NCBI RefSeq assembly: GCF_003018115.1
Contig: NZ_CP027457.1
Strand: one strand, 5' to 3'
DNA: 64,000 bases
Source of the DNA: Escherichia coli
GTDB taxonomy: Bacteria; Pseudomonadota; Gammaproteobacteria; Enterobacterales; Enterobacteriaceae
Numbering within the stretch: the stretch's first letter is position 1; the number at the start of each line of letters is the position of its first letter. The notes under the pieces were generated by a model, which ran no database searches, had not been told where the DNA came from, and worked only from the letters and a program-made list of their open reading frames with translations. Made by a program: the position numbers and the translations under genes. Shown here piece by piece: positions 32,570 through 43,839 of this stretch.

Positions 32570-35206
32570 TTAACGACATTCAGCTGATAGCTGGGTTAAT
32601 AACTGCTGCTGACTCTCTGGTGGCAGTTGATAATTGGCGACACAGTGAGCATTTTCCTCTTCTCCCCATTTCACCTGAACTTTTCCCGCTAAAGGCATTC
32701 CGCTGAGGTAAACCTGACCATTATCCGCAACAATGCCGCTACTCTGGCTACTCTCTGATGTCACCATCGCCCCAAACGGCAGCGGCTTATTATTGTGAGT
32801 TAGCGTCATGAGCAGTTTTATCCCAACGCGCGCTTTAAACTCTGCTCGCACGATCGCCCCACGAGTGGGAACAACGTTAGCGACCGCGTTATCTAAATCG
32901 ACGTTATCAGCCAAGGTATTGGTATCCAGCGCCACTCTATTTTCCCGATATTCGGTGGCATAAGGCAGCACGGCATAACCGCGCCAGTCGGTACGCACCC
33001 CCGTCTGGTTTTCGACTTTTGCATCTTTTGCGCCAGGCGCTTTAACAAGTACCACCGTATCGTTTAACGGCTGCCCCAGCGTTACGCCATTGGCATGAGC
33101 CAGTACCCCACCGCTGACTCCGTAATAGAGCTGCTTAATATCATCGCTATGGCTGTAACCGATATTGGCATTGCCGTAACCACCGCGATAATTCAGCGTG
33201 GCGTAGCCTGTACTTCCGCTATTACCATCGCCTCCCCCGGCATAGCCGGTTTGCACGCTATAACTGAGGTTGTTGTCTTCCAGCAACGTACCGTATACAC
33301 CAGCCAGATTGGTCATCCGACCGTTGAGATCGTGTGACATGCTGTAGCTAGCACTGGCATGTCGCCACTGAGATTTACTGTCAGAACGCAGCCAGTGGCT
33401 GAAAGGAATATTGACGTTAAGCGCTAACATCTGATCCCGTCCTTTTTGCCAGGCGTTTTTCGTCAGGCTATAGCTGAGCGTCCAGTTGATATCTTCGAAC
33501 GCAGTATTTAATCCAGCCTGGAATTGCTCATCGACATTACTCGTTCCCCAATAAGTTTGATGGCTACCACTCAAATACAGTGTTGATGTGCGCCCGAGTT
33601 GCTGAGTAACGGTGAGCTGTAATTTCCCGCGTTTGTTATAAGCGAGGTTGTAATAGTCGGTGAATTTCGGCTTAACCTGAATAACTCCGTCCTGTGTTTC
33701 GATGTTGTAGCCATTCATTCGACTGTATGTTGTATCAGCGAAATTAAAATATCCGCTGGTCGAATAACGGTAACCCACTAACTGAATATTCGTGCCTGAC
33801 TCATTGAGCGATTTGTTATAGAGAAAACGAACCGATTGTCCGTCATGCTGACTGTCATCGGGAAGTGTGGAATTAGCCTGAGTCATATCCACAGACAGAG
33901 CGCCCAGTGCCCCCATGTTTTTCCCGATACCGAAATTAAAAGCACGATAACGATCTGCCAGTTGCGTTCCACCATATATTGTCCAGCCAGCCGGAAGGCC
34001 GTGGAGTAATGTACTCTGGAAAAAGCGGGGTTTTTCCTGTTGCGCATTTCCACTACGGTATTCTCCTGCCGTAATGGAATAACGAGTATGCCCTTCACGT
34101 TGCAAAAGCGGGACTGACGAATAGGGTACGGTAAAAATCTGCGTGCTGCCGTCAGCCTCTTTAATCGTTACCTGCAAGTCACCACTATTACCTGCGGCAT
34201 AGATATCGTTGATGGTAAAAGGCCCCGGTGGCACCGTACTATTATAAATGTCATACCCATTTTGTTTAATAGTGACCTGTGCAGTACCACGAGCAATACC
34301 GTGGATCACCGGGGCAAATCCTCTTTGGCTATCGGGTAACATATTGTCATCTGAGGCCAATTGTGCGCCGCGAAAGTTAATACCATCGAAAATATCGCCC
34401 TGAGTATAACCATCACCCAGCGTCAGCCGGGAACGTAACGGTATTATGTCTCGCTCAAGCCAGGTATTGATATGCTGCCATTTATTTTTGCTACCTGATG
34501 ATCTGTCGCTACTGTTATAACTCCAGGTGGTATTGTCGCGTAAACGCCACGCACCAATATTTAACCCACTCTGTAGGTTTAAATATGCATAATGGCTGTT
34601 ACCCCCAATCCGATTCTGTACACTATTTCCGCTGAAATTATAATTGAGCAATCCGGCATTAATACCGGGATCCCATAACTCAGGAGGAATATAACCACGC
34701 GCGCGATTACTCATAAATGCCTGAGGGATCGTCAGGTTGAGTCGCTGCTGACCAACATCCAGATGCGCAGTAGCGTCATGGATCATTGAGGTTAATGGCA
34801 CGCAGGCATCATCCGCCAGCAGATTCATACCGGAGACAGAAGCCGTATTCAGCCCCATACTGGCAAGTTGCGCGCGTGTCAGGCAGGGAACAATCCCTTG
34901 TTCGCTGTCGCCCGTATTAAATGTGACATCACGCGTTGCCATATAACCATTATTCAAATAGATATCGACACGATACGTCCCTGGTGGTAATTCTTGCCCA
35001 TTCTCAAAACGCGATAAATCGGCTACAGCCTGGGGATCATCCGCTAAAAAACGCGGGTTAAAATAGAGTTCGGCAGATGACAAAGGTGCCTGTGCGGCAA
35101 AAGCACAGGCAACAAAGAGCCGGACAAAAAAACCAGCCAAATGATGCTTACGAATATGCAAGCATTGTGTGTTTCGCTGGTAAAGTCTTAAATTCAGATA
35201 TGACAT
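32570..35206 (-). CDS. fimD: fimbrial outer-membrane usher FimD (878 aa)
   Basis: ORF track 878 aa matching FimD in length and sequence. Confidence 0.95.
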   Translation of the reverse strand: MSYLNLRLYQRNTQCLHIRKHHLAGFFVRLFVACAFAAQAPLSSAELYFNPRFLADDPQAVADLSRFENGQELPPGTYRVDIYLNNGYMATRDVTFNTGDSEQGIVPCLTRAQLASMGLNTASVSGMNLLADDACVPLTSMIHDATAHLDVGQQRLNLTIPQAFMSNRARGYIPPELWDPGINAGLLNYNFSGNSVQNRIGGNSHYAYLNLQSGLNIGAWRLRDNTTWSYNSSDRSSGSKNKWQHINTWLERDIIPLRSRLTLGDGYTQGDIFDGINFRGAQLASDDNMLPDSQRGFAPVIHGIARGTAQVTIKQNGYDIYNSTVPPGPFTINDIYAAGNSGDLQVTIKEADGSTQIFTVPYSSVPLLQREGHTRYSITAGEYRSGNAQQEKPRFFQSTLLHGLPAGWTIYGGTQLADRYRAFNFGIGKNMGALGALSVDMTQANSTLPDDSQHDGQSVRFLYNKSLNESGTNIQLVGYRYSTSGYFNFADTTYSRMNGYNIETQDGVIQVKPKFTDYYNLAYNKRGKLQLTVTQQLGRTSTLYLSGSHQTYWGTSNVDEQFQAGLNTAFEDINWTLSYSLTKNAWQKGRDQMLALNVNIPFSHWLRSDSKSQWRHASASYSMSHDLNGRMTNLAGVYGTLLEDNNLSYSVQTGYAGGGDGNSGSTGYATLNYRGGYGNANIGYSHSDDIKQLYYGVSGGVLAHANGVTLGQPLNDTVVLVKAPGAKDAKVENQTGVRTDWRGYAVLPYATEYRENRVALDTNTLADNVDLDNAVANVVPTRGAIVRAEFKARVGIKLLMTLTHNNKPLPFGAMVTSESSQSSGIVADNGQVYLSGMPLAGKVQVKWGEEENAHCVANYQLPPESQQQLLTQLSAECR

Positions 35207-35272
35207 TATTCCTCCGGTTTAAAATTACCCGGCAGTCAATTCTTTTTATTCAGGCGAGAAATTCCCCCTGCG

Positions 35273-35998
35273 TTATTCCATTACGCCCGTCATTTTGGGG
35301 GTAAGTGCGCCATAATCATTTATTGTTCGGTAAGTAATATTGCTTCCTGCATCAGAAGGCAATTTAACCGTGCTTTCGCCCATTGGAGGCACCAATGCAT
35401 TTTCAAGAACCCGGGTTCCGGCATTCAACTCTGTTACCGTCAGATAATAGGGTGTCGGGTTAATCAGCGTCAGAGAATTCGCGCTACGACGAAATCTTAA
35501 TTTTTCTGCGGCCTGATCGGGTGGCAACGCTAATTTAGCCGGGCGATAGTACAGTTTAATGCGGCTGATAATTGCGAGCTGTAGCGTATTCTCAGTCAAT
35601 TTTGATTTATCCATTGACGGAATCGCTTTAACATTCATCCAGAATAAACTTTCCCGGTCCTGTGGCAATTGGTTATTTGTTGCATCAAGAATACGCAAGG
35701 TATTCTCTTTTTTTCCCTTCATCGCAAACAGAGGAGGCGTCACGATAAAACGACCATCCTTTACACCATCGGCATTTTCCACCCATGATTGAATTAAATA
35801 GGTACTATTTTCATCATTATTTGTCACGGCAAGTTGCACTTGTTTTTGCCCTGCCGGATAAATTACGCGAGTCGCACCTAAGGCCACTCCCGCTTCAGCG
35901 CGTCCGGCAACCATCATTGCCATGAACATCAGGATACCTGCCAGCAAGCAGAATGTTATTTCCTGCGATTTCCTTACATTGACGTTTTTATTACTCAC
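35273..35998 (-). CDS. fimC: periplasmic fimbrial chaperone FimC (241 aa)
   Basis: ORF track; PapD-like chaperone sequence. Confidence 0.95.
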   Translation of the reverse strand: MSNKNVNVRKSQEITFCLLAGILMFMAMMVAGRAEAGVALGATRVIYPAGQKQVQLAVTNNDENSTYLIQSWVENADGVKDGRFIVTPPLFAMKGKKENTLRILDATNNQLPQDRESLFWMNVKAIPSMDKSKLTENTLQLAIISRIKLYYRPAKLALPPDQAAEKLRFRRSANSLTLINPTPYYLTVTELNAGTRVLENALVPPMGESTVKLPSDAGSNITYRTINDYGALTPKMTGVME

Positions 35999-36034
35999 TG
36001 TCCTGTTCCTGTTATCACATTATCTGCTGAACAA

Positions 36035-36574
36035 TTACTGATAGGTTAAAGAGAACCAGGCCTGGGCATTGGCGATGCCGCCAGTAACCCGACGCCCGGT
36101 AGCACGATATTTGGCGATGAAATGTAGCGAAGTAGAGCCTGAGTAAAGCCGTTTCCAGTTTACTGGAGGACGATTAATCGGTACGAGGTTTCCTTCATCA
36201 TCAAACAACGCTACGCCAATATTGGTGGCTATCCCTGGCCCCTCTCCCACGGAAAGCACATCCGGATTTTTACCATCCGCGACACCGTGAAACGCCACAC
36301 CCACACGTTCACTCACCACCGTGCTACATTCCCGTAAATGAATAACAAAAGGCACCGGTGCGCTATCTTCCCCTACCGCATGAAACCGGTTACTGCTGAT
36401 TTGCCCCATATTGACCGTCATTTGTTTATCACCGGCTTCAATCCGGCAAGTTTCCGCAATAATGACGCCCTGAAATTGCATATTTCCGCCGGGCAGCGTG
36501 GTATTCCATTTATTTCCGGCCAGAGCAAACATTGGCAGCAACGACGCTAATAGAAATAATCTCTTCCTTTTCAT
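36035..36574 (-). CDS. fimI: fimbrin-like protein FimI (179 aa)
   Basis: ORF track frame; start at [20 protein letters not shown] (cat at 36572-36574); the longer ORF-track start would overlap fimA. Confidence 0.85.
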
Positions 36575-36638
36575 CGTTATTTTTATCGCACAAGGGTGGG
36601 CATCCCTGCCCGTAATGACGTCCCTGAACCTGGGTAGG

Positions 36639-37187
36639 TTATTGATACTGAACCTTGAAGGTCGCATCCGCATTAGCTGCGCCAGGGGTTGCGACACCGG
36701 TTGCATAATAACGCGCCTGGAACGGAATGGTGTTAGTACCGTTATTCAGGGTTGTTTGCTCACTGAATGTCGCACCATCCAGCGTCAGCGCAGCACCCGT
36801 TCTGTCCAGGATCTGCACACCAACGTTTGTTGCGCTACCCGCAGCTGAACTCTGCAGAGCCAGAACGTTGGTATGACCCGCATCAATCGCCGTACCTAAA
36901 AAGGCAACTGCGGCTTTAGATGCAACATTGGTATCGCAATCATTCAGCTGAATGTTAAAACCGACAGCAGAACTGGTTGCTCCTTCCTGTGCCAGCGATG
37001 CGGTACGAACCTGTCCTAACTGAACGGTTTGATCAACAGAGCCTGCATCAACTGCGCAAGCGGCGTTAACAACTTCCCCTTTAAAGTGAACGGTCCCACC
37101 ATTAACCGTCGTGGCAGCGGCCAGAGCCGCTGTAGAACTGAGGGACAGAGCCGACAGAACAACGATTGCCAGAGTTTTAATTTTCAT
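36639..37187 (-). CDS. fimA: type 1 fimbrial major subunit FimA (182 aa)
   Basis: ORF track frame; start [23 protein letters not shown] (cat at 37185-37187). Confidence 0.95.
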
Positions 37188-37306: not shown

Positions 37307-37620
37307 TTGGGGCCATTTTGACTCATAGAGGAAAGCATCGCGTACAAACTTTTTCAGTTTATTTGTTGGCTTAATATTCTATTGTTATCTTTATTTATAG
37401 ATTTTTATATTGCATGAGGTGGTTTTTGGAGAGAAGAATGAGGAAGATGCGTCGAGCCACAGAAACGTTAGCTTTACATATAGCGGAGGTGATGTGAAAT
37501 TAATTTACAATAGAAATAATTTACATATCAAACAGTTAGATGCTTTTTGTCGTTTTTTAATATTTTTATGCTTGAGAAAAAATACGTAACTTATTTATGA
37601 TATGGACAGTTTGGCCCCAA
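37307..37620. promoter_or_regulatory. fimS: fimS invertible phase-variation switch (314 bp) bounded by 9-bp inverted repeats
   Basis: ttggggcca at 37307-37315 and its inverted copy tggccccaa at 37612-37620, between fimA and fimE as expected for the FimB/FimE-driven switch. Confidence 0.9.
37572..37602 (+). promoter_or_regulatory. sigma70-like promoter inside fimS (ttgaga -18- tatgata), oriented away from fimA in this sequence
   Basis: -35 ttgaga at 37572-37577 and -10 tatgata at 37596-37602 on the plus strand, abutting the fimE-proximal inverted repeat; fimA is on the minus strand on the other side. Confidence 0.55.
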
Positions 37621-37667
37621 TTGTCTTGTATTTATTTGTTTTTTAACTTTATTATCAATAAGTTAAA

Positions 37668-38264
37668 TCAAACCTCTTCTCTTTTTAATTTTTCGTTTAT
37701 GAGATTATTTCTTTCCCATAATCCGGCAAAACGAGCAGCATTACTGGCGGTATAACGCACAGTATGGCGAATATTTCGATGCCCGAGATAATCCTGAATT
37801 AAACGAGTATCTGCACCACGCTCCGCCAGTTCATAACCGCAAGCATGCCTTAACATATGAGGATGAGTCTGCGTTACGGTTCCAGCTTCAATACCGGCAT
37901 CGCGAATAATGCGATAGGCCTGCTGGCGAGAAAGCCGACTCCCGCGGCGAGAAATAAATATGGCGTCGGTCCGGTCAGCGCCTTTCCAGTTAGCACGTTC
38001 CAGGGTCCAGCGTTCCACAGCTTCACGCTCATCAAAACGTAACGGGTGAACGGTAGAAAATCCGTTCTTCAGTCGGCGAATATTTATTCGACCTTCATTA
38101 AGGTCAAGATCCTGATAATGCAGATCAAGCAGTTCACTAATACGCATCCCATGCCGATATGCCAACAGAATAAGACAATAATCTCTGGCTCCCGTTGCCC
38201 CGTAACAAACCGCCTGCATCATGGCCTGAACTTCTTTACCGGTAAGATAACGACGTTTACTCAC
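37668..38264 (-). CDS. fimE: tyrosine recombinase FimE (198 aa, ON-to-OFF switching)
   Basis: ORF track; MSKRRYLTGKEVQAMMQAV...; closer of the two paralogs to fimS. Confidence 0.95.
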   Translation of the reverse strand: MSKRRYLTGKEVQAMMQAVCYGATGARDYCLILLAYRHGMRISELLDLHYQDLDLNEGRINIRRLKNGFSTVHPLRFDEREAVERWTLERANWKGADRTDAIFISRRGSRLSRQQAYRIIRDAGIEAGTVTQTHPHMLRHACGYELAERGADTRLIQDYLGHRNIRHTVRYTASNAARFAGLWERNNLINEKLKREEV

Positions 38265-38741: not shown

Positions 38742-39344
38742 CTATAAAACAGCGTGACGCTGTCGTCCTCTGGCTCTATCCCAGATGCCGTAAAAACGCC
38801 CTGCATTGCTGGCGGTATACCAGACAGTATGACGAATATTGCGATGCCCAAGATAATCCTGGATAAGTCGCGTATCTATTCCCATATTCGCCAAAGCAAA
38901 ACCACACGAATGGCGTAACATGTGCGGATGAATCTCCAGTGACAACCCGGCATTACCACCGGAAGTCGAGATAATATGGTAAAATTGTTGCCGAGAAAGC
39001 GGATTCCCCTTACGCGATAAAAATACCCACTCGCTCTCAGCATGCGGATACGAAGTACGGATACTCAACCAGTTTTTTAAAGCCTGAACTTCTTTGTTCA
39101 ATAGCGGGTGCGTTGTTGAAAAGCCTTTTTTTAATCGATGGATATATATACACTTTGCCTTAAGATCAATATCCGAAATCCTCAATCGACAAATTTCACT
39201 CGCCCGGAAACCATGAATAAAACAAAGCAAAGTCAGACAATAATTACGTGCTGCATGAGGCCCGGTATTTGCTGCTTTAAGGAGTGATTCGATTTCACTA
39301 TGGGTCAGGAAGTTCCTTTTTTTGTTTTCAGCCTTATTCTTCAT
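38742..39344 (-). CDS. fimB: tyrosine recombinase FimB (200 aa)
   Basis: ORF track frame; start at MKNKAENKKRNFLTHSEIESLL (cat at 39342-39344). Confidence 0.95.
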   Translation of the reverse strand: MKNKAENKKRNFLTHSEIESLLKAANTGPHAARNYCLTLLCFIHGFRASEICRLRISDIDLKAKCIYIHRLKKGFSTTHPLLNKEVQALKNWLSIRTSYPHAESEWVFLSRKGNPLSRQQFYHIISTSGGNAGLSLEIHPHMLRHSCGFALANMGIDTRLIQDYLGHRNIRHTVWYTASNAGRFYGIWDRARGRQRHAVL

Positions 39345-40359
39345 CGTTTTTCCCTTATAATTACAGACGCGCACTAGCTGTGCTGGGTTAGCAATAATCC
39401 AACATTTTTATCCTGATTATGTTTATAAAAGCGAACGTTTGCTTAATAACTAACGTAAGTGGACCAGTTCTTCTGAGTGAACTTAAATGGAGTAGCAACA
39501 GTTAATTATAATAACGTTGCCATACAAACGCTATGCTCTTGCATGCTATGTACCTTTATATATTTATCAATCGGATACGAATCTAATAATAACCCTCATC
39601 ATTAATGCAACTAATCTTATCTATATATCATGTGATATGTTCTGTAACAAGTAAAATCAACATAAAAAATTCAGCAAAATTTAATATTCGTTCAACTAGC
39701 CGTCTCACATATGACATTATTAGTCAACTCCATTTGCCACAAAATGGCTATTTCATGGAACACAGTAATTTCTTAGTGGCTATTATCAAGCTAATTCTTA
39801 GGTCCCTAGCGATTATTCCTGGCTGGTTCGTCAGTTTAAGCCATGAGATTGTTACATTCCTTTTTATCCTGGAGATATGGGGGAACGCAGGAGACGATTT
39901 TTTCATCTACATTCGTTGGTAAATATGGCTTTGGTCACTGCGACTTAAACCTTCCTCAATCACAGCCATTCGCCGGGCGATACGGCAAACAAACTAAGTG
40001 AAACATCATCCTGAAAACACCAACATCAACAAGCCTCTCCAGATCGACTTCAGAAGTGACCAGTTACAAGCCACAAACCAGGAAACATATTTCATGATGA
40101 GAATTATGCTCAGCCTGATGGCGGGTAAACACTGATTTTCATCAAACTCACTGAGTTAGCTTGCAAAGCTTTCCTTGTTTAGACTCTAAATAAATTATTT
40201 ATAAAACAAATATTTAAACGAAGATCTTTAGTTTTTGAAGACCACCGCAAGTGTTCGTCTGGCTTCACATGGCATCTTCCTCTTAGAAAAAGATCGACAT
40301 ATTTTGTGACACGAATTGCAAATCTGGTTTTGTTGTATGGATTGCGTGATTTTTGATCT

Positions 40360-40380
40360 GGTATAACAGGTATAAAGGTG
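40360..40380. promoter_or_regulatory. GGTATA-repeat operator (candidate NanR site) in the fimB-nanC intergenic region
   Basis: ggtataacaggtataaaggtg; NanR is known to bind GGTATA repeats in the nanC-fimB region. Confidence 0.55.
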
Positions 40381-40797
40381 CACCAAGATAGTCAATGAGA
40401 CAGGGCATCTCGCAATCTCTGGCAAACATCACTTCAGTTCTTTCTCATCGGGTGATGAAAACGCACTTCAGTCTGAAAGGAATATGAAAATGAGATCAAC
40501 AGACACTCTATTTTATGACTCTGGGTAAAATGAATTGAGTAAGTGATATAGCTTACGAACATTCAAATCAATTAAACATCAGAAGAGATTTTATACTCAG
40601 GTATTTAATCTGGCTCTCTGTTTATTTAAATAATGTGGAAAGAGAATTTTCACAGGAGACCTTATACAAAAAATATAAAATAAGCTACCCGTTGCCAAAG
40701 ACACTATAAGCCTGGCAAAAAATATTACACAACATAAATGCTAATTGTTTATGCGGGCTTTGTTTTGCTTTCTGTATCCTACAAATGAGTGAAATTT

Positions 40798-41514
40798 ATG
40801 AAAAAGGCTAAAATACTTTCTGGCGTATTATTACTGTGCTTTTCGTCACCATTAATTTCTCAGGCTGCGACACTGGACGTACGTGGTGGATATCGTAGCG
40901 GAAGCCATGCCTATGAGACTCGACTCAAAGTCAGTGAGGGATGGCAAAATGGATGGTGGGCAAGCATGGAAAGTAATACCTGGAATACCATTCATGATAA
41001 TAAAAAGGAAAATGCCGCACTCAATGATGTTCAGGTTGAAGTTAATTACGCGATTAAACTTGATGAGCAATGGACGGTGCGCCCGGGAATGTTAACGCAT
41101 TTTAGCAGCAACGGCACACGCTACGGACCCTACGTAAAACTGTCCTGGGACGCGACAAAAGATCTTAATTTTGGCATTCGCTATCGTTACGACTGGAAAG
41201 CTTACCGACAACAAGACTTATCCGGTGATATGTCTCGTGATAACGTTCATCGTTGGGATGGATATGTCACTTACCATATTAATAGTGATTTCACCTTCGC
41301 ATGGCAAACGACGCTATACAGCAAACAGAACGATTATCGCTATGCAAACCATAAGAAATGGGCGACGGAAAATGCATTTGTTCTACAATACCATATGACG
41401 CCCGATATTACGCCATACATAGAATATGACTACCTGGACCGTCAGGGTGTTTACAACGGCAGAGATAATTTATCGGAAAACAGTTATCGCATTGGTGTGT
41501 CATTTAAACTGTAG
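40798..41514 (+). CDS. nanC: N-acetylneuraminic acid outer-membrane channel NanC (KdgM family)
   Basis: ORF track frame; start MKKAKILSGVLLLCFSSPLISQA (signal peptide); divergent from fimB. Confidence 0.9.
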   Translation: MKKAKILSGVLLLCFSSPLISQAATLDVRGGYRSGSHAYETRLKVSEGWQNGWWASMESNTWNTIHDNKKENAALNDVQVEVNYAIKLDEQWTVRPGMLTHFSSNGTRYGPYVKLSWDATKDLNFGIRYRYDWKAYRQQDLSGDMSRDNVHRWDGYVTYHINSDFTFAWQTTLYSKQNDYRYANHKKWATENAFVLQYHMTPDITPYIEYDYLDRQGVYNGRDNLSENSYRIGVSFKL

Positions 41515-41533
41515 TAGACAGGAGACAGTCACA

Positions 41534-42640
41534 ATGAATAAAACAATAACGGCGCTTGCTATCATGATGGCTTCATTTGCCGCAAACGCGTCTGTATTAC
41601 CGGAAACTCCTGTGCCATTTAAAAGTGGTACCGGAGCAATTGATAACGACACTGTCTACATTGGTTTAGGTAGCGCAGGTACGGCATGGTACAAGCTGGA
41701 TACACAGGCCAAAGATAAAAAATGGACAGCGTTAGCTGCATTCCCTGGTGGAACAAGAGATCAAGCAACCTCGGCATTTATTGATGGCAATCTGTATGTG
41801 TTTGGCGGCATTGGCAAAAATAGCAAGGGCTTGACTCAGGTATTTAATGACGTACACAAATACAACCCCAAAACCAATAGTTGGGTTAAATTGATGTCGC
41901 ACGCACCGATGGGCATGGCAGGTCATGTGACTTTTGTACACAACGGCAAGGCTTATGTTACTGGCGGTGTTAACCAGAATATCTTCAATGGCTATTTTGA
42001 AGATCTCAACGAGGCTGGAAAAGATTCAACCGCTGTAGATAAAATCAACGCTCACTATTTTGACAAAAAAGCAGAAGATTATTTCTTCAATAAGTTTCTG
42101 TTGTCTTTTGATCCCTCAACACAGCAATGGAGTTACGCTGGCGAATCTCCCTGGTACGGAACGGCTGGTGCGGCGGTTGTGAATAAAGGTGATAAAACCT
42201 GGCTTATTAATGGTGAAGCCAAACCAGGATTGCGAACGGATGCCGTATTTGAACTTGATTTCACCGGTAATAATTTAAAATGGAATAAGCTTGCTCCCGT
42301 CTCATCACCAGATGGCGTCGCTGGCGGTTTTGCGGGGATAAGCAATGATTCTCTTATATTTGCCGGAGGGGCCGGATTCAAAGGTTCACGAGAAAATTAC
42401 CAAAACGGTAAGAACTATGCGCATGAAGGCCTGAAAAAATCATATAGCACTGATATTCATCTTTGGCATAACGGGAAATGGGATAAATCGGGTGAATTAT
42501 CGCAAGGTCGGGCCTACGGAGTATCATTGCCCTGGAATAATAGTCTATTGATTATTGGCGGTGAAACTGCAGGCGGCAAAGCGGTGACGGATTCAGTTTT
42601 GATCTCTGTGAAGGATAATAAAGTTACAGTACAAAACTAA
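41534..42640 (+). CDS. nanM: N-acetylneuraminate mutarotase NanM (Kelch-repeat protein)
   Basis: ORF track frame; start MNKTITALAIMMASFAANA with ggagacagtc RBS; Kelch-like repeats. Confidence 0.9.
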   Translation: MNKTITALAIMMASFAANASVLPETPVPFKSGTGAIDNDTVYIGLGSAGTAWYKLDTQAKDKKWTALAAFPGGTRDQATSAFIDGNLYVFGGIGKNSKGLTQVFNDVHKYNPKTNSWVKLMSHAPMGMAGHVTFVHNGKAYVTGGVNQNIFNGYFEDLNEAGKDSTAVDKINAHYFDKKAEDYFFNKFLLSFDPSTQQWSYAGESPWYGTAGAAVVNKGDKTWLINGEAKPGLRTDAVFELDFTGNNLKWNKLAPVSSPDGVAGGFAGISNDSLIFAGGAGFKGSRENYQNGKNYAHEGLKKSYSTDIHLWHNGKWDKSGELSQGRAYGVSLPWNNSLLIIGGETAGGKAVTDSVLISVKDNKVTVQN

Positions 42641-42704
42641 CGCTTCAGGGCCCCAGTAAAGGGGCCCTGCTATCAATTTGTCATTTCAATTACGCGAAAT
42701 TTAT

Positions 42705-43685
42705 ATGAACGCAATAATATCGCCTGATTATTACTATGTTCTTACCGTTGCTGGTCAGTCTAATGCCATGGCGTATGGCGAAGGACTGCCATTACCGGAC
42801 AGGGAAGATGCGCCTCATCCAAGAATTAAACAATTAGCGAGATTTGCGCATACGCATCCCGGAGGCCCGTCATGTCACTTTAACGACATTATTCCACTGA
42901 CTCACTGCCCACACGATGTTCAGGATATGCAGAGTTATCACCATCCTCTGGCAACGAATCATCAAACACAGTACGGCACCGTTGGCCAGGCACTGCATAT
43001 TGCACGGAAATTACTGCCCTTTATTCCTGATAACGCAGGGGTTCTCATCGTTCCATGTTGCCGTGGCGGATCGGCTTTTACCGCGGGCAGCGAGGGGACA
43101 TATTCAGAACGGCACGGAGCCAGCCATGATGCTTGTCGTTGGGGAACGGATACTCCGCTGTACCAGGATTTAGTCAGCAGAACGCGAGCCGCACTGGCAA
43201 AAAATCCGCAGAACAAATTCCTCGGCGTATGCTGGATGCAAGGCGAATTTGACTTAATGACCAGTGACTACGCGTCACACCCTCAACACTTTAATCATAT
43301 GGTTGAAGCCTTTCGTAGGGATCTAAAACAATACCATTCTCAGCTGAATAATATTACTGACGCGCCGTGGTTTTGCGGCGATACCACCTGGTACTGGAAA
43401 GAAAATTTCCCTCATGCGTATGAAGCTATTTATGGCAATTATCAAAATAATGTTTTAGCCAATATTATTTTCGTCGACTTCCAGCAACAAGGTGAAAGAG
43501 GACTGACGAACGCGCCTGATGAAGATCCGGACGATTTAAGCACGGGATATTACGGTTCAGCGTACCGGTCACCGGAGAACTGGACGACGGCACTGCGAAG
43601 CAGTCATTTCAGCGCGGCAGCCCGTCGGGGGATTATTTCTGACAAGTTTGTAGAAGCAATTTTGCAGTTTTGGCGCGAAAGGTGA
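42705..43685 (+). CDS. nanS: 9-O-acetyl-N-acetylneuraminate esterase NanS
   Basis: ORF track frame; start MNAIISPDYYYVLTVAGQSNAMAYG (SGNH-like GQSN motif). Confidence 0.85.
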   Translation: MNAIISPDYYYVLTVAGQSNAMAYGEGLPLPDREDAPHPRIKQLARFAHTHPGGPSCHFNDIIPLTHCPHDVQDMQSYHHPLATNHQTQYGTVGQALHIARKLLPFIPDNAGVLIVPCCRGGSAFTAGSEGTYSERHGASHDACRWGTDTPLYQDLVSRTRAALAKNPQNKFLGVCWMQGEFDLMTSDYASHPQHFNHMVEAFRRDLKQYHSQLNNITDAPWFCGDTTWYWKENFPHAYEAIYGNYQNNVLANIIFVDFQQQGERGLTNAPDEDPDDLSTGYYGSAYRSPENWTTALRSSHFSAAARRGIISDKFVEAILQFWRER

Positions 43686-43839
43686 GCGTTCATTAATTTG
43701 ATTTATTCGCATCCATCAGCGCTTTTAACTCCTCCGGCGTAAACGGTGGTTTGCGTCGGTGCAACATCGCATGGCAATTAGGGCACACAGGCAGCAAAAA
43801 AACAAATGAGATCAAAGTAATATATCTTCACTTGCAGGC

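What the first reader, a model, noticed from the sequence alone, without database searches (positions are those of the whole stretch)
37307..37620. fim switch appears captured in the phase-OFF orientation
The invertible element is bounded by the 9-bp inverted repeats at 37307-37315 and 37612-37620. The only good sigma70-like promoter inside it (ttgaga -18- tatgata, 37572-37602, plus strand) abuts the fimE-proximal repeat and points away from fimA, which is on the minus strand at 36639-37187. In the ON state the fimA promoter should sit next to the fimA-proximal repeat and read into fimA. The assembled sequence therefore represents OFF-phase cells, or an OFF-majority population.
Basis: partly seen in the sequence, partly recalled or inferred. 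Interest (0 to 1): 0.5.

Follow-up and report, generated by a model that had tools for sequence, protein, structure and literature searches.

The report
fim switch assembled in OFF orientation
This is the well-known invertible promoter of E. coli type 1 fimbriae, assembled with its promoter pointing away from fimA (phase OFF); about 95% of complete E. coli genomes show the same state, so it is ordinary.

Summary
Window 37307-37620 is the canonical 314-bp fimS element. It is bounded by the published 9-bp inverted repeats TTGGGGCCA and lies between intact fimE and fimA on the minus strand. The interpretation, phase OFF, also holds.

- **Published orientation assays, run in silico.** BstUI gives 188+539 bp against a published OFF pattern of 187+539. 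SnaBI gives 440+161 bp, exactly the published OFF pattern.
- **Reference genomes.** The element is collinear with UTI89, whose switch the literature states is OFF. It is also collinear with MG1655 and with O157:H7, whose switch the literature describes as locked OFF by regulatory mutations.
- **Promoter.** TTGAGA-18-TATGAT (plus strand, 37572-37601) sits at the fimE-proximal end and reads away from fimA. In natural ON assemblies the same promoter sits at the fimA-proximal end and reads into fimA.
- **Frequency.** Among complete E. coli genomes, 4449 are collinear with the window and 251 with its inverted form.
- **Switch integrity.** FimB and FimE are intact with full catalytic tetrads, and the O157 16-bp deletion is absent. 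The switch is probably functional, not locked.

That the culture was mostly OFF is a reasonable inference, but it cannot be tested without reads. Nothing here is novel, and interest is low.

The parts
38742..39344 (-). fimB, a tyrosine recombinase that inverts fimS in both directions
   Evidence: 200 aa, 199/200 identical to K-12 FimB. The catalytic residues R47, H141, R144 and Y176 listed in PMC9820224 can all be read in the alignment.
37668..38264 (-). fimE, a tyrosine recombinase biased towards ON-to-OFF inversion
   Evidence: 198 aa, 197/198 identical to K-12 FimE. R41, H136, R139 and Y171 are present.
37307..37620 (.). fimS, the 314-bp invertible element, in phase-OFF orientation
   Evidence: Length and repeats. 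It has 2 substitutions against MG1655 fimS in the same orientation. In-silico BstUI and SnaBI assays give the OFF patterns.
37612..37620 (.). fimE-proximal 9-bp inverted repeat (IRL), TGGCCCCAA on the plus strand
37307..37315 (.). fimA-proximal 9-bp inverted repeat (IRR), TTGGGGCCA on the plus strand
37572..37601 (+). PfimA: -35 TTGAGA (37572-37577), 18-bp spacer, -10 TATGAT (37596-37601). In this orientation it reads towards fimE and away from fimA.
   Evidence: Consensus scan, 10 of 12 positions. The same motif sits next to the fimA-proximal repeat and faces fimA in ON assemblies. The promoter-distal end is identified from the Fis site. The transcription start was not mapped here.
37584..37589 (.). 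SnaBI site (TACGTA) in the promoter spacer, used in the published orientation assay
37339..37342 (.). The only BstUI site (CGCG) in the assay amplicon, at the promoter-distal end, used in the published orientation assay
   Evidence: sequence
37349..37384 (.). Fis / LRP-2 binding region at the promoter-distal end of fimS
   Evidence: The wild-type flanks of the published Fis-site mutagenesis primers map here. The site is described in PMC9993118.
36639..37187 (-). fimA, the major fimbrial subunit gene, disconnected from its promoter in this orientation
30592..36574 (-). fimI, fimC, fimD, fimF, fimG and fimH, the rest of the operon driven by PfimA when the switch is ON
   Evidence: ORFs; gene names from the 99.9%-identical strain F8111-1SC3

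Best explanation
Window 37307-37620 is the canonical E. coli fimS phase switch, assembled in the OFF orientation.

**Mechanism (established knowledge, PMC2647292, PMC9993118).**
- The tyrosine recombinases FimB and FimE cut and rejoin within the two 9-bp inverted repeats and flip the 314-bp segment.
- The segment carries the only promoter for fimAICDFGH near one end.
- It also carries a Rho-dependent terminator that acts on the fimE transcript only when the switch is OFF.

**State in the window.** The promoter end lies next to fimE and reads on the plus strand, away from fimA, so the fim structural operon has no promoter and cells with this sequence are afimbriate.

**Functionality.** The recombinase genes and repeats are intact, and the element differs from K-12 by 2 substitutions. 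The switch is therefore most likely functional and reversible.

**What the assembly records.** It most likely shows the majority orientation of the sequenced culture. A majority of OFF is expected because FimE drives ON-to-OFF switching and dominates FimB.

**Shown versus inferred.** Shown here: the identity of the element, its orientation and the integrity of its parts. Inferred: promoter activity, actual inversion in this strain and the make-up of the population.
For: - **Element.** Exact published repeats at a 314-bp outer distance between fimE and fimA.
- **Assays.** In-silico BstUI gives 188+539, the OFF pattern. In-silico SnaBI gives 440+161, the OFF pattern exactly.
- **References.** Collinear with MG1655 and O157:H7 and with UTI89, whose reference is stated to be OFF.
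- **ON assemblies.** They show the same breakpoints with the inner sequence inverted and the promoter facing fimA.
- **Frequency.** 4449 genomes are collinear with the window and 251 with its inverted form.
- **Integrity.** FimB is 199/200 and FimE 197/198 identical to K-12, with catalytic tetrads intact. The 16-bp O157 deletion is absent.
- **Closest relatives.** The three closest assemblies (99.9%, O169:H41 lineage) are collinear in a single piece across fimS.
Against: - Nothing contradicts the orientation call.
- The consensus promoter scan is not significant on its own, and no transcription-start data were available in the held papers. The primary mapping paper and Hinde 2005 are not held.
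- The population-level claim cannot be tested without reads.
- One conservative substitution each in FimB (D6E) and FimE (Q88L), and two in fimS, have untested effects.
Confidence: 0.93

Rival explanations
1. The switch is locked or strongly biased OFF in this strain by a cis or trans defect, as in O157:H7. The OFF state would then be fixed and not a snapshot of phase variation.
For: O157:H7 is collinear with the window. The window has lineage-specific substitutions: FimB D6E, FimE Q88L and two bases in fimS. All three closest relatives are also OFF.
Against: The 16-bp O157 deletion is absent, and both repeats are perfect. FimB and FimE are full length with all catalytic residues. About 95% of all assemblies are OFF anyway, so three OFF relatives carry little information.
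Confidence: 0.04
2. The orientation in the assembly does not reflect a clear OFF majority. The culture could have been substantially mixed, with the assembler or a reference-guided polishing step picking one orientation.
For: fimS inverts at appreciable rates, about 1e-2 per cell per generation for FimB (PMC2647292). Static cultures can be near half ON: 48.3% OFF in wild-type CFT073. Assemblies collapse mixtures to one sequence.
Against: With both recombinases present, FimE makes OFF predominate. The 4449:251 ratio across assemblies fits a majority-OFF rule. There is no sign of misassembly at the junctions: the flanks are identical to other strains.
Confidence: 0.08
3. The element is actually ON. 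The true fimA promoter would then be one of the other promoter-like sites, for example the minus-strand TTGATA-18-TAAATT at 37531-37502 that faces fimA.
For: Two further 9-of-12 consensus matches lie inside the element, and one faces fimA.
Against: Both published restriction assays call this orientation OFF. The literature places the Fis site at the promoter-distal end, which here is the fimA side. UTI89, stated to be OFF, is collinear with the window. Matches of 9 of 12 are expected by chance in DNA of 32% G+C.
Confidence: 0.01

Closest known systems
E. coli K-12 fimS (MG1655 NC_000913.3 reference sequence, phase OFF)
   Same: Both have a 314-bp element with identical 9-bp repeats, the same orientation, the same promoter hexamers and the same BstUI, SnaBI and HinfI sites. 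Gene order is fimB-fimE-fimS-fimA in both.
   Different: There are two substitutions inside fimS, a 1-bp difference in the A-run between fimE and IRL, and two substitutions in the fimA leader. FimB has D6E and FimE has Q88L.
E. coli O157:H7 fimS, described as locked OFF (EHEC regulatory mutations, PMC6458436); this assembly carries a 16-bp deletion
   Same: Same orientation and flanks. The FimE protein accession (WP_000044700.1) is the same as in the window's close relative.
   Different: O157:H7 lacks 16 bp (AAACGACAAAAAGCAT) inside the switch, giving a 298-bp element. The window has the full 314 bp.
Natural phase-ON assemblies (for example strains 13E0780, S21, DH1, DH5alpha and W3110 with fimE::IS1)
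   Same: Identical flanks and repeats, and an inner sequence of 98-99% identity once inverted.
   Different: The inner 296 bp is inverted, so the promoter lies next to the fimA-proximal repeat and faces fimA. These make up 251 of about 4700 scorable genomes.
Other Fim-type invertible promoters (ipuS, the hyxR/fimX switch) described in UPEC
   Same: Same principle: a promoter on a short segment flipped by a tyrosine recombinase (PMC6458436).
   Different: They have different loci, repeats (7 bp in ipuS) and target genes. None is present in this window according to the annotation of the near-identical strain.

Membership tests
fimS type 1 fimbrial phase switch (E. coli) | A 314-bp segment bounded by perfect 9-bp inverted repeats TTGGGGCCA | tested here: met
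   Repeats at 37307-37315 and 37612-37620, the only copies in the window, with an outer distance of 314 bp. Definition in PMC8777976 and PMC9820224.
fimS type 1 fimbrial phase switch (E. coli) | Located between fimE and fimA, upstream of fimAICDFGH | tested here: met
   ORFs and the annotation of the 99.9%-identical strain. FimE is 99% identical to K-12.
fimS type 1 fimbrial phase switch (E. coli) | Linked tyrosine recombinases FimB and FimE with the catalytic R-H-R-Y tetrad | tested here: met
   FimB has R47/H141/R144/Y176 and FimE has R41/H136/R139/Y171, all present in the alignments. The residue list comes from PMC9820224.
fimS type 1 fimbrial phase switch (E. coli) | An internal sigma-70 promoter near one end that drives fimA in one orientation only | tested here: inconclusive
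   The sequence motif TTGAGA-18-TATGAT is present at the fimE-proximal end, and it faces fimA in ON assemblies. The promoter end agrees with the Fis-site description. Promoter activity and transcription start were not measured, and the primary mapping paper is not held.
fimS type 1 fimbrial phase switch (E. coli) | Both orientations occur, with breakpoints in the 9-bp repeats | tested here: met
   4449 genomes are collinear with the window and 251 with the artificially inverted form. The alignment shows identical flanks and inversion exactly between the repeats. This was shown across strains, not within this strain.
fimS type 1 fimbrial phase switch (E. coli) | Inversion actually takes place in this strain (a mixed population) | not testable with these tools
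   No reads or cultures were available.
Phase-OFF orientation of fimS | The published PCR-restriction assays give the OFF fragment sizes | tested here: met
   BstUI gives 188+539 against a published OFF of 187+539. SnaBI gives 440+161 against a published OFF of 440+161.
Phase-OFF orientation of fimS | Collinear with a reference stated in the literature to be OFF | tested here: met
   In the UTI89 reference the same-orientation alignment score is 292 against -20 for the inverted form. The statement that UTI89 is OFF is in PMC6458436.
Locked-OFF fimS (O157:H7 type) | A 16-bp deletion inside the switch | tested here: not met
   The window has the full 314 bp. The deletion is seen only in the O157:H7 row of the alignment.

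The most novel reading that the evidence does not exclude
The OFF-specific junction at the fimE end may create regulatory features of its own. PfimA reads antisense into the 3' end of fimE. An imperfect 16-nt inverted repeat (37587-37602 / 37650-37665) exists only in the OFF state and would lie in the fimE 3' UTR, where it could contribute to the known orientation-dependent control of fimE mRNA. A separate point is that the 95:5 OFF:ON ratio across about 4700 complete assemblies could serve as a crude population readout of switch bias. Neither idea is specific to this window.
Probability: 0.05. Interest if true: 0.2.

Novelty: already known. Interest (0 to 1): 0.05.

Why it matters
It matters little. 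The fim switch is a textbook phase-variation system, and OFF is the usual state in genome assemblies.

The practical value is for annotation. In this sequence the fim operon is intact but has no promoter attached. Promoter and operon predictions, or RNA-seq and variant calls made against it, should therefore allow for reads in the inverted orientation. The strain should not be scored as unable to make type 1 fimbriae.

Tried and rejected
- **Terminator and promoter papers.** Hinde et al. 2005 (PMC1317003), which describes the terminator and promoter layout, is not held.
- **Full-text search.** Searching for the promoter hexamers together with fimA returned only irrelevant papers. Further searches gave reviews and schematic figure legends, but no base-level transcription start.
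- **Statistics alone.** The promoter scan gave 3 hits against 2.2 expected. The 9-mer count gave 2 copies, reached in 10 of 100 shuffles. Neither is significant, so I relied on identity to the published element.
- **RNA hairpin.** Folding the OFF-specific inverted repeat next to the fimE stop codon gave z = -1.47, so I dropped it as a structure claim.
- **Locked-OFF hypothesis.** I considered it and rejected it: there is no 16-bp deletion and the recombinases are intact.
- **Minus-strand promoter-like site.** I rejected the site facing fimA as the true promoter on the basis of the assay and literature anchors.

Full report
**What is in the sequence**

The fim gene cluster lies on the minus strand of the window:
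- fimB at 38742-39344
- fimE at 37668-38264
- a 480-bp intergenic region
- fimA at 36639-37187
- fimI, fimC, fimD, fimF, fimG and fimH, running down to 30592

Inside the intergenic region, TTGGGGCCA occurs at 37307-37315 and its reverse complement at 37612-37620. These are the only two copies in the 64-kb window, and their outer distance is exactly 314 bp. Reviews define fimS as a 314-bp element flanked by 9-bp inverted repeats 5'-TTGGGGCCA (PMC8777976; PMC9820224; PMC2647292).

The consensus scan finds TTGAGA (37572-37577), an 18-bp spacer and TATGAT (37596-37601) on the plus strand. This is the best match in the region, at 10 of 12 positions.

Two caveats apply. The promoter scan is not significant on its own in this DNA of 32% G+C: it finds 3 sites against 2.2 expected, and two other 9-of-12 sites lie inside the element. 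The 9-mer count alone is also not rare by chance. The identification rests on exact identity to the published element in its published position.

**Which orientation is it?**

I used tests that do not depend on the promoter prediction.

1. *BstUI assay.* The Dorman laboratory assay amplifies the switch with primers OL4 and OL20 and cuts at the single BstUI site. OFF gives 539+187 bp and ON gives 433+293 bp (PMC9993118). Both primers match the window exactly. The 727-bp amplicon (one extra base relative to K-12) is cut into 188+539 bp, and the artificially inverted element gives 434+293 bp.
2. *SnaBI assay.* The assay in PMC13276309 uses a 601-bp amplicon, with ON giving 403+198 bp and OFF giving 440+161 bp. 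In the window it gives a 601-bp amplicon cut into 440+161 bp.
[quoted passage not shown] The wild-type flanks of its mutagenesis primers map to 37349-37384, next to the fimA-proximal repeat. The promoter end is therefore the fimE-proximal end, where the TTGAGA/TATGAT motif lies.
4. *Reference genomes.* The element is collinear with three references:
   - MG1655 NC_000913.3, with 2 substitutions in 314 bp;
   - O157:H7, which in this assembly carries a 16-bp deletion inside the switch and whose switch PMC6458436 describes as locked OFF by regulatory mutations;
   - UTI89, which PMC6458436 states has fimS in the OFF orientation.
5. *Natural ON assemblies.* Strains 13E0780 and S21 have identical flanks and repeats and the inner sequence inverted. 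Their motif lies next to the fimA-proximal repeat and faces fimA.

All five tests agree that the window is phase OFF.

**How common is this state?**

A 1101-bp query spanning fimA, fimS and fimE matched 4725 of 5426 complete E. coli genomes. In 4449 of them a single place covers at least 80% of the query, meaning the same orientation as the window. The same query with the 314 bp inverted in silico reached 80% coverage in 251 genomes. A genome in the opposite orientation covers only about 73% of either query (hit H29), so the two counts separate cleanly.

That gives 94.7% OFF and 5.3% ON among the 4700 scorable genomes. The ON list includes several K-12 laboratory derivatives: DH1, DH5alpha and W3110 with IS1 in fimE. 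The three assemblies closest to the window (99.9% identity; the O169:H41 lineage, including 2014EL-1345-2 and F8111-1SC3) are collinear in a single piece across the switch.

**Is the switch intact?**

- FimB is 199/200 identical to K-12 (D6E) and FimE is 197/198 identical (Q88L).
- The catalytic residues listed in PMC9820224 are all present: FimB R47, H141, R144 and Y176; FimE R41, H136, R139 and Y171.
- Both repeats are perfect, and the 16-bp deletion seen in the O157:H7 assembly is absent.
- The two substitutions in fimS are at positions that also vary between K-12 and O157:H7.

Nothing suggests a locked switch.

**Mechanism**

What follows is established knowledge, cited from PMC2647292 and PMC9993118.
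- FimB and FimE act independently at the repeats.
- FimE strongly prefers ON-to-OFF, and it dominates when both are present.
- IHF, Lrp, H-NS and Fis shape the reaction.
[quoted passage not shown] The anatomy and the orientation are shown here. Promoter activity, inversion in this strain and the make-up of the sequenced population are inferred.

**Verdict**

The statement that the culture was OFF or mostly OFF is the expected situation, but it cannot be checked without reads. This is a textbook element in its usual state: already known, and of low interest.

**What led nowhere**

- The primary promoter and terminator papers were not held.
- Text searches for the hexamers were uninformative.
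- An OFF-specific imperfect inverted repeat straddling the fimE-proximal repeat does not fold better than shuffled sequence (z = -1.47).

Noticed in passing
window 19001-44000 (whole window context): The window comes from the E. coli O169:H41 lineage. It is 99.9% identical to strains 2014EL-1345-2 (NZ_CP024223.1), NZ_LR882990.1 and F8111-1SC3 (NZ_CP024269.1). No listed record is shown as 100% identical over this 25-kb query. The window has 15 mismatches and 3 gaps against F8111-1SC3 over 41 kb.
   Followed up: partly
window 32570-35206 (fimD) and about 35125: RefSeq annotates fimD as frameshifted in F8111-1SC3. The window lacks the extra A found there near 35125 and has an intact 878-aa fimD ORF. 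The frameshift in the relative may be an assembly error or a real difference between strains.
   Followed up: partly
window 43840-44769: The phosphorothioated-DNA-binding restriction endonuclease gene is annotated as frameshifted in F8111-1SC3. In the window it is an uninterrupted ORF, because of an extra G at 44727. UTI89 has an intact homologue.
   Followed up: partly
window 19585-19604: The window has 20 bp here that are absent from F8111-1SC3, in the region between kptA and yjiH.
   Followed up: no
window 39345-48208: tRNA-Leu(CAA) (leuX, 48124-48208, minus strand) lies only about 8.8 kb from fimB. The interval holds nanC, nanM, a truncated sialate O-acetylesterase gene, an HNH endonuclease fragment and a 682-aa hypothetical ORF (45398-47446). 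This looks like a short remnant of the variable leuX island.
   Followed up: partly
window 36594-36628 (minus strand): The 35-nt fimR2 small RNA sequence annotated in MG1655 (b4838), just downstream of fimA, is present as an exact copy.
   Followed up: yes
window 55251-55326 and 55347-55422 (minus strand): Two tandem Rfam naRNA4 (REP-derived nucleoid-associated RNA) matches lie between pepA and holC. They coincide with a direct repeat of about 96 bp that blastn also detects.
   Followed up: no
window 54223-54417 (minus strand): An Rfam Ysr276 (Yersinia antisense sRNA) match at 180 bits lies inside the pepA coding region on the opposite strand. It most likely reflects conservation of pepA and not evidence for an sRNA in E. 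coli.
   Followed up: no
window 37587-37602 and 37650-37665: An imperfect 16-nt inverted repeat (88% complementary) has one arm inside fimS, over the -10 region, and the other in the fimE-side flank. It therefore exists only in the OFF orientation. The RNA fold is not better than shuffles (z = -1.47).
   Followed up: yes
window 1-18715: Going by the annotation of the near-identical strain, this end of the window carries several notable genes. They are a 5.2-kb inverse autotransporter gene (iatD), a 2.1-kb pentapeptide-repeat protein gene, an SdiA-regulated-domain gene and a frameshifted Rpn-family nuclease gene.
   Followed up: no
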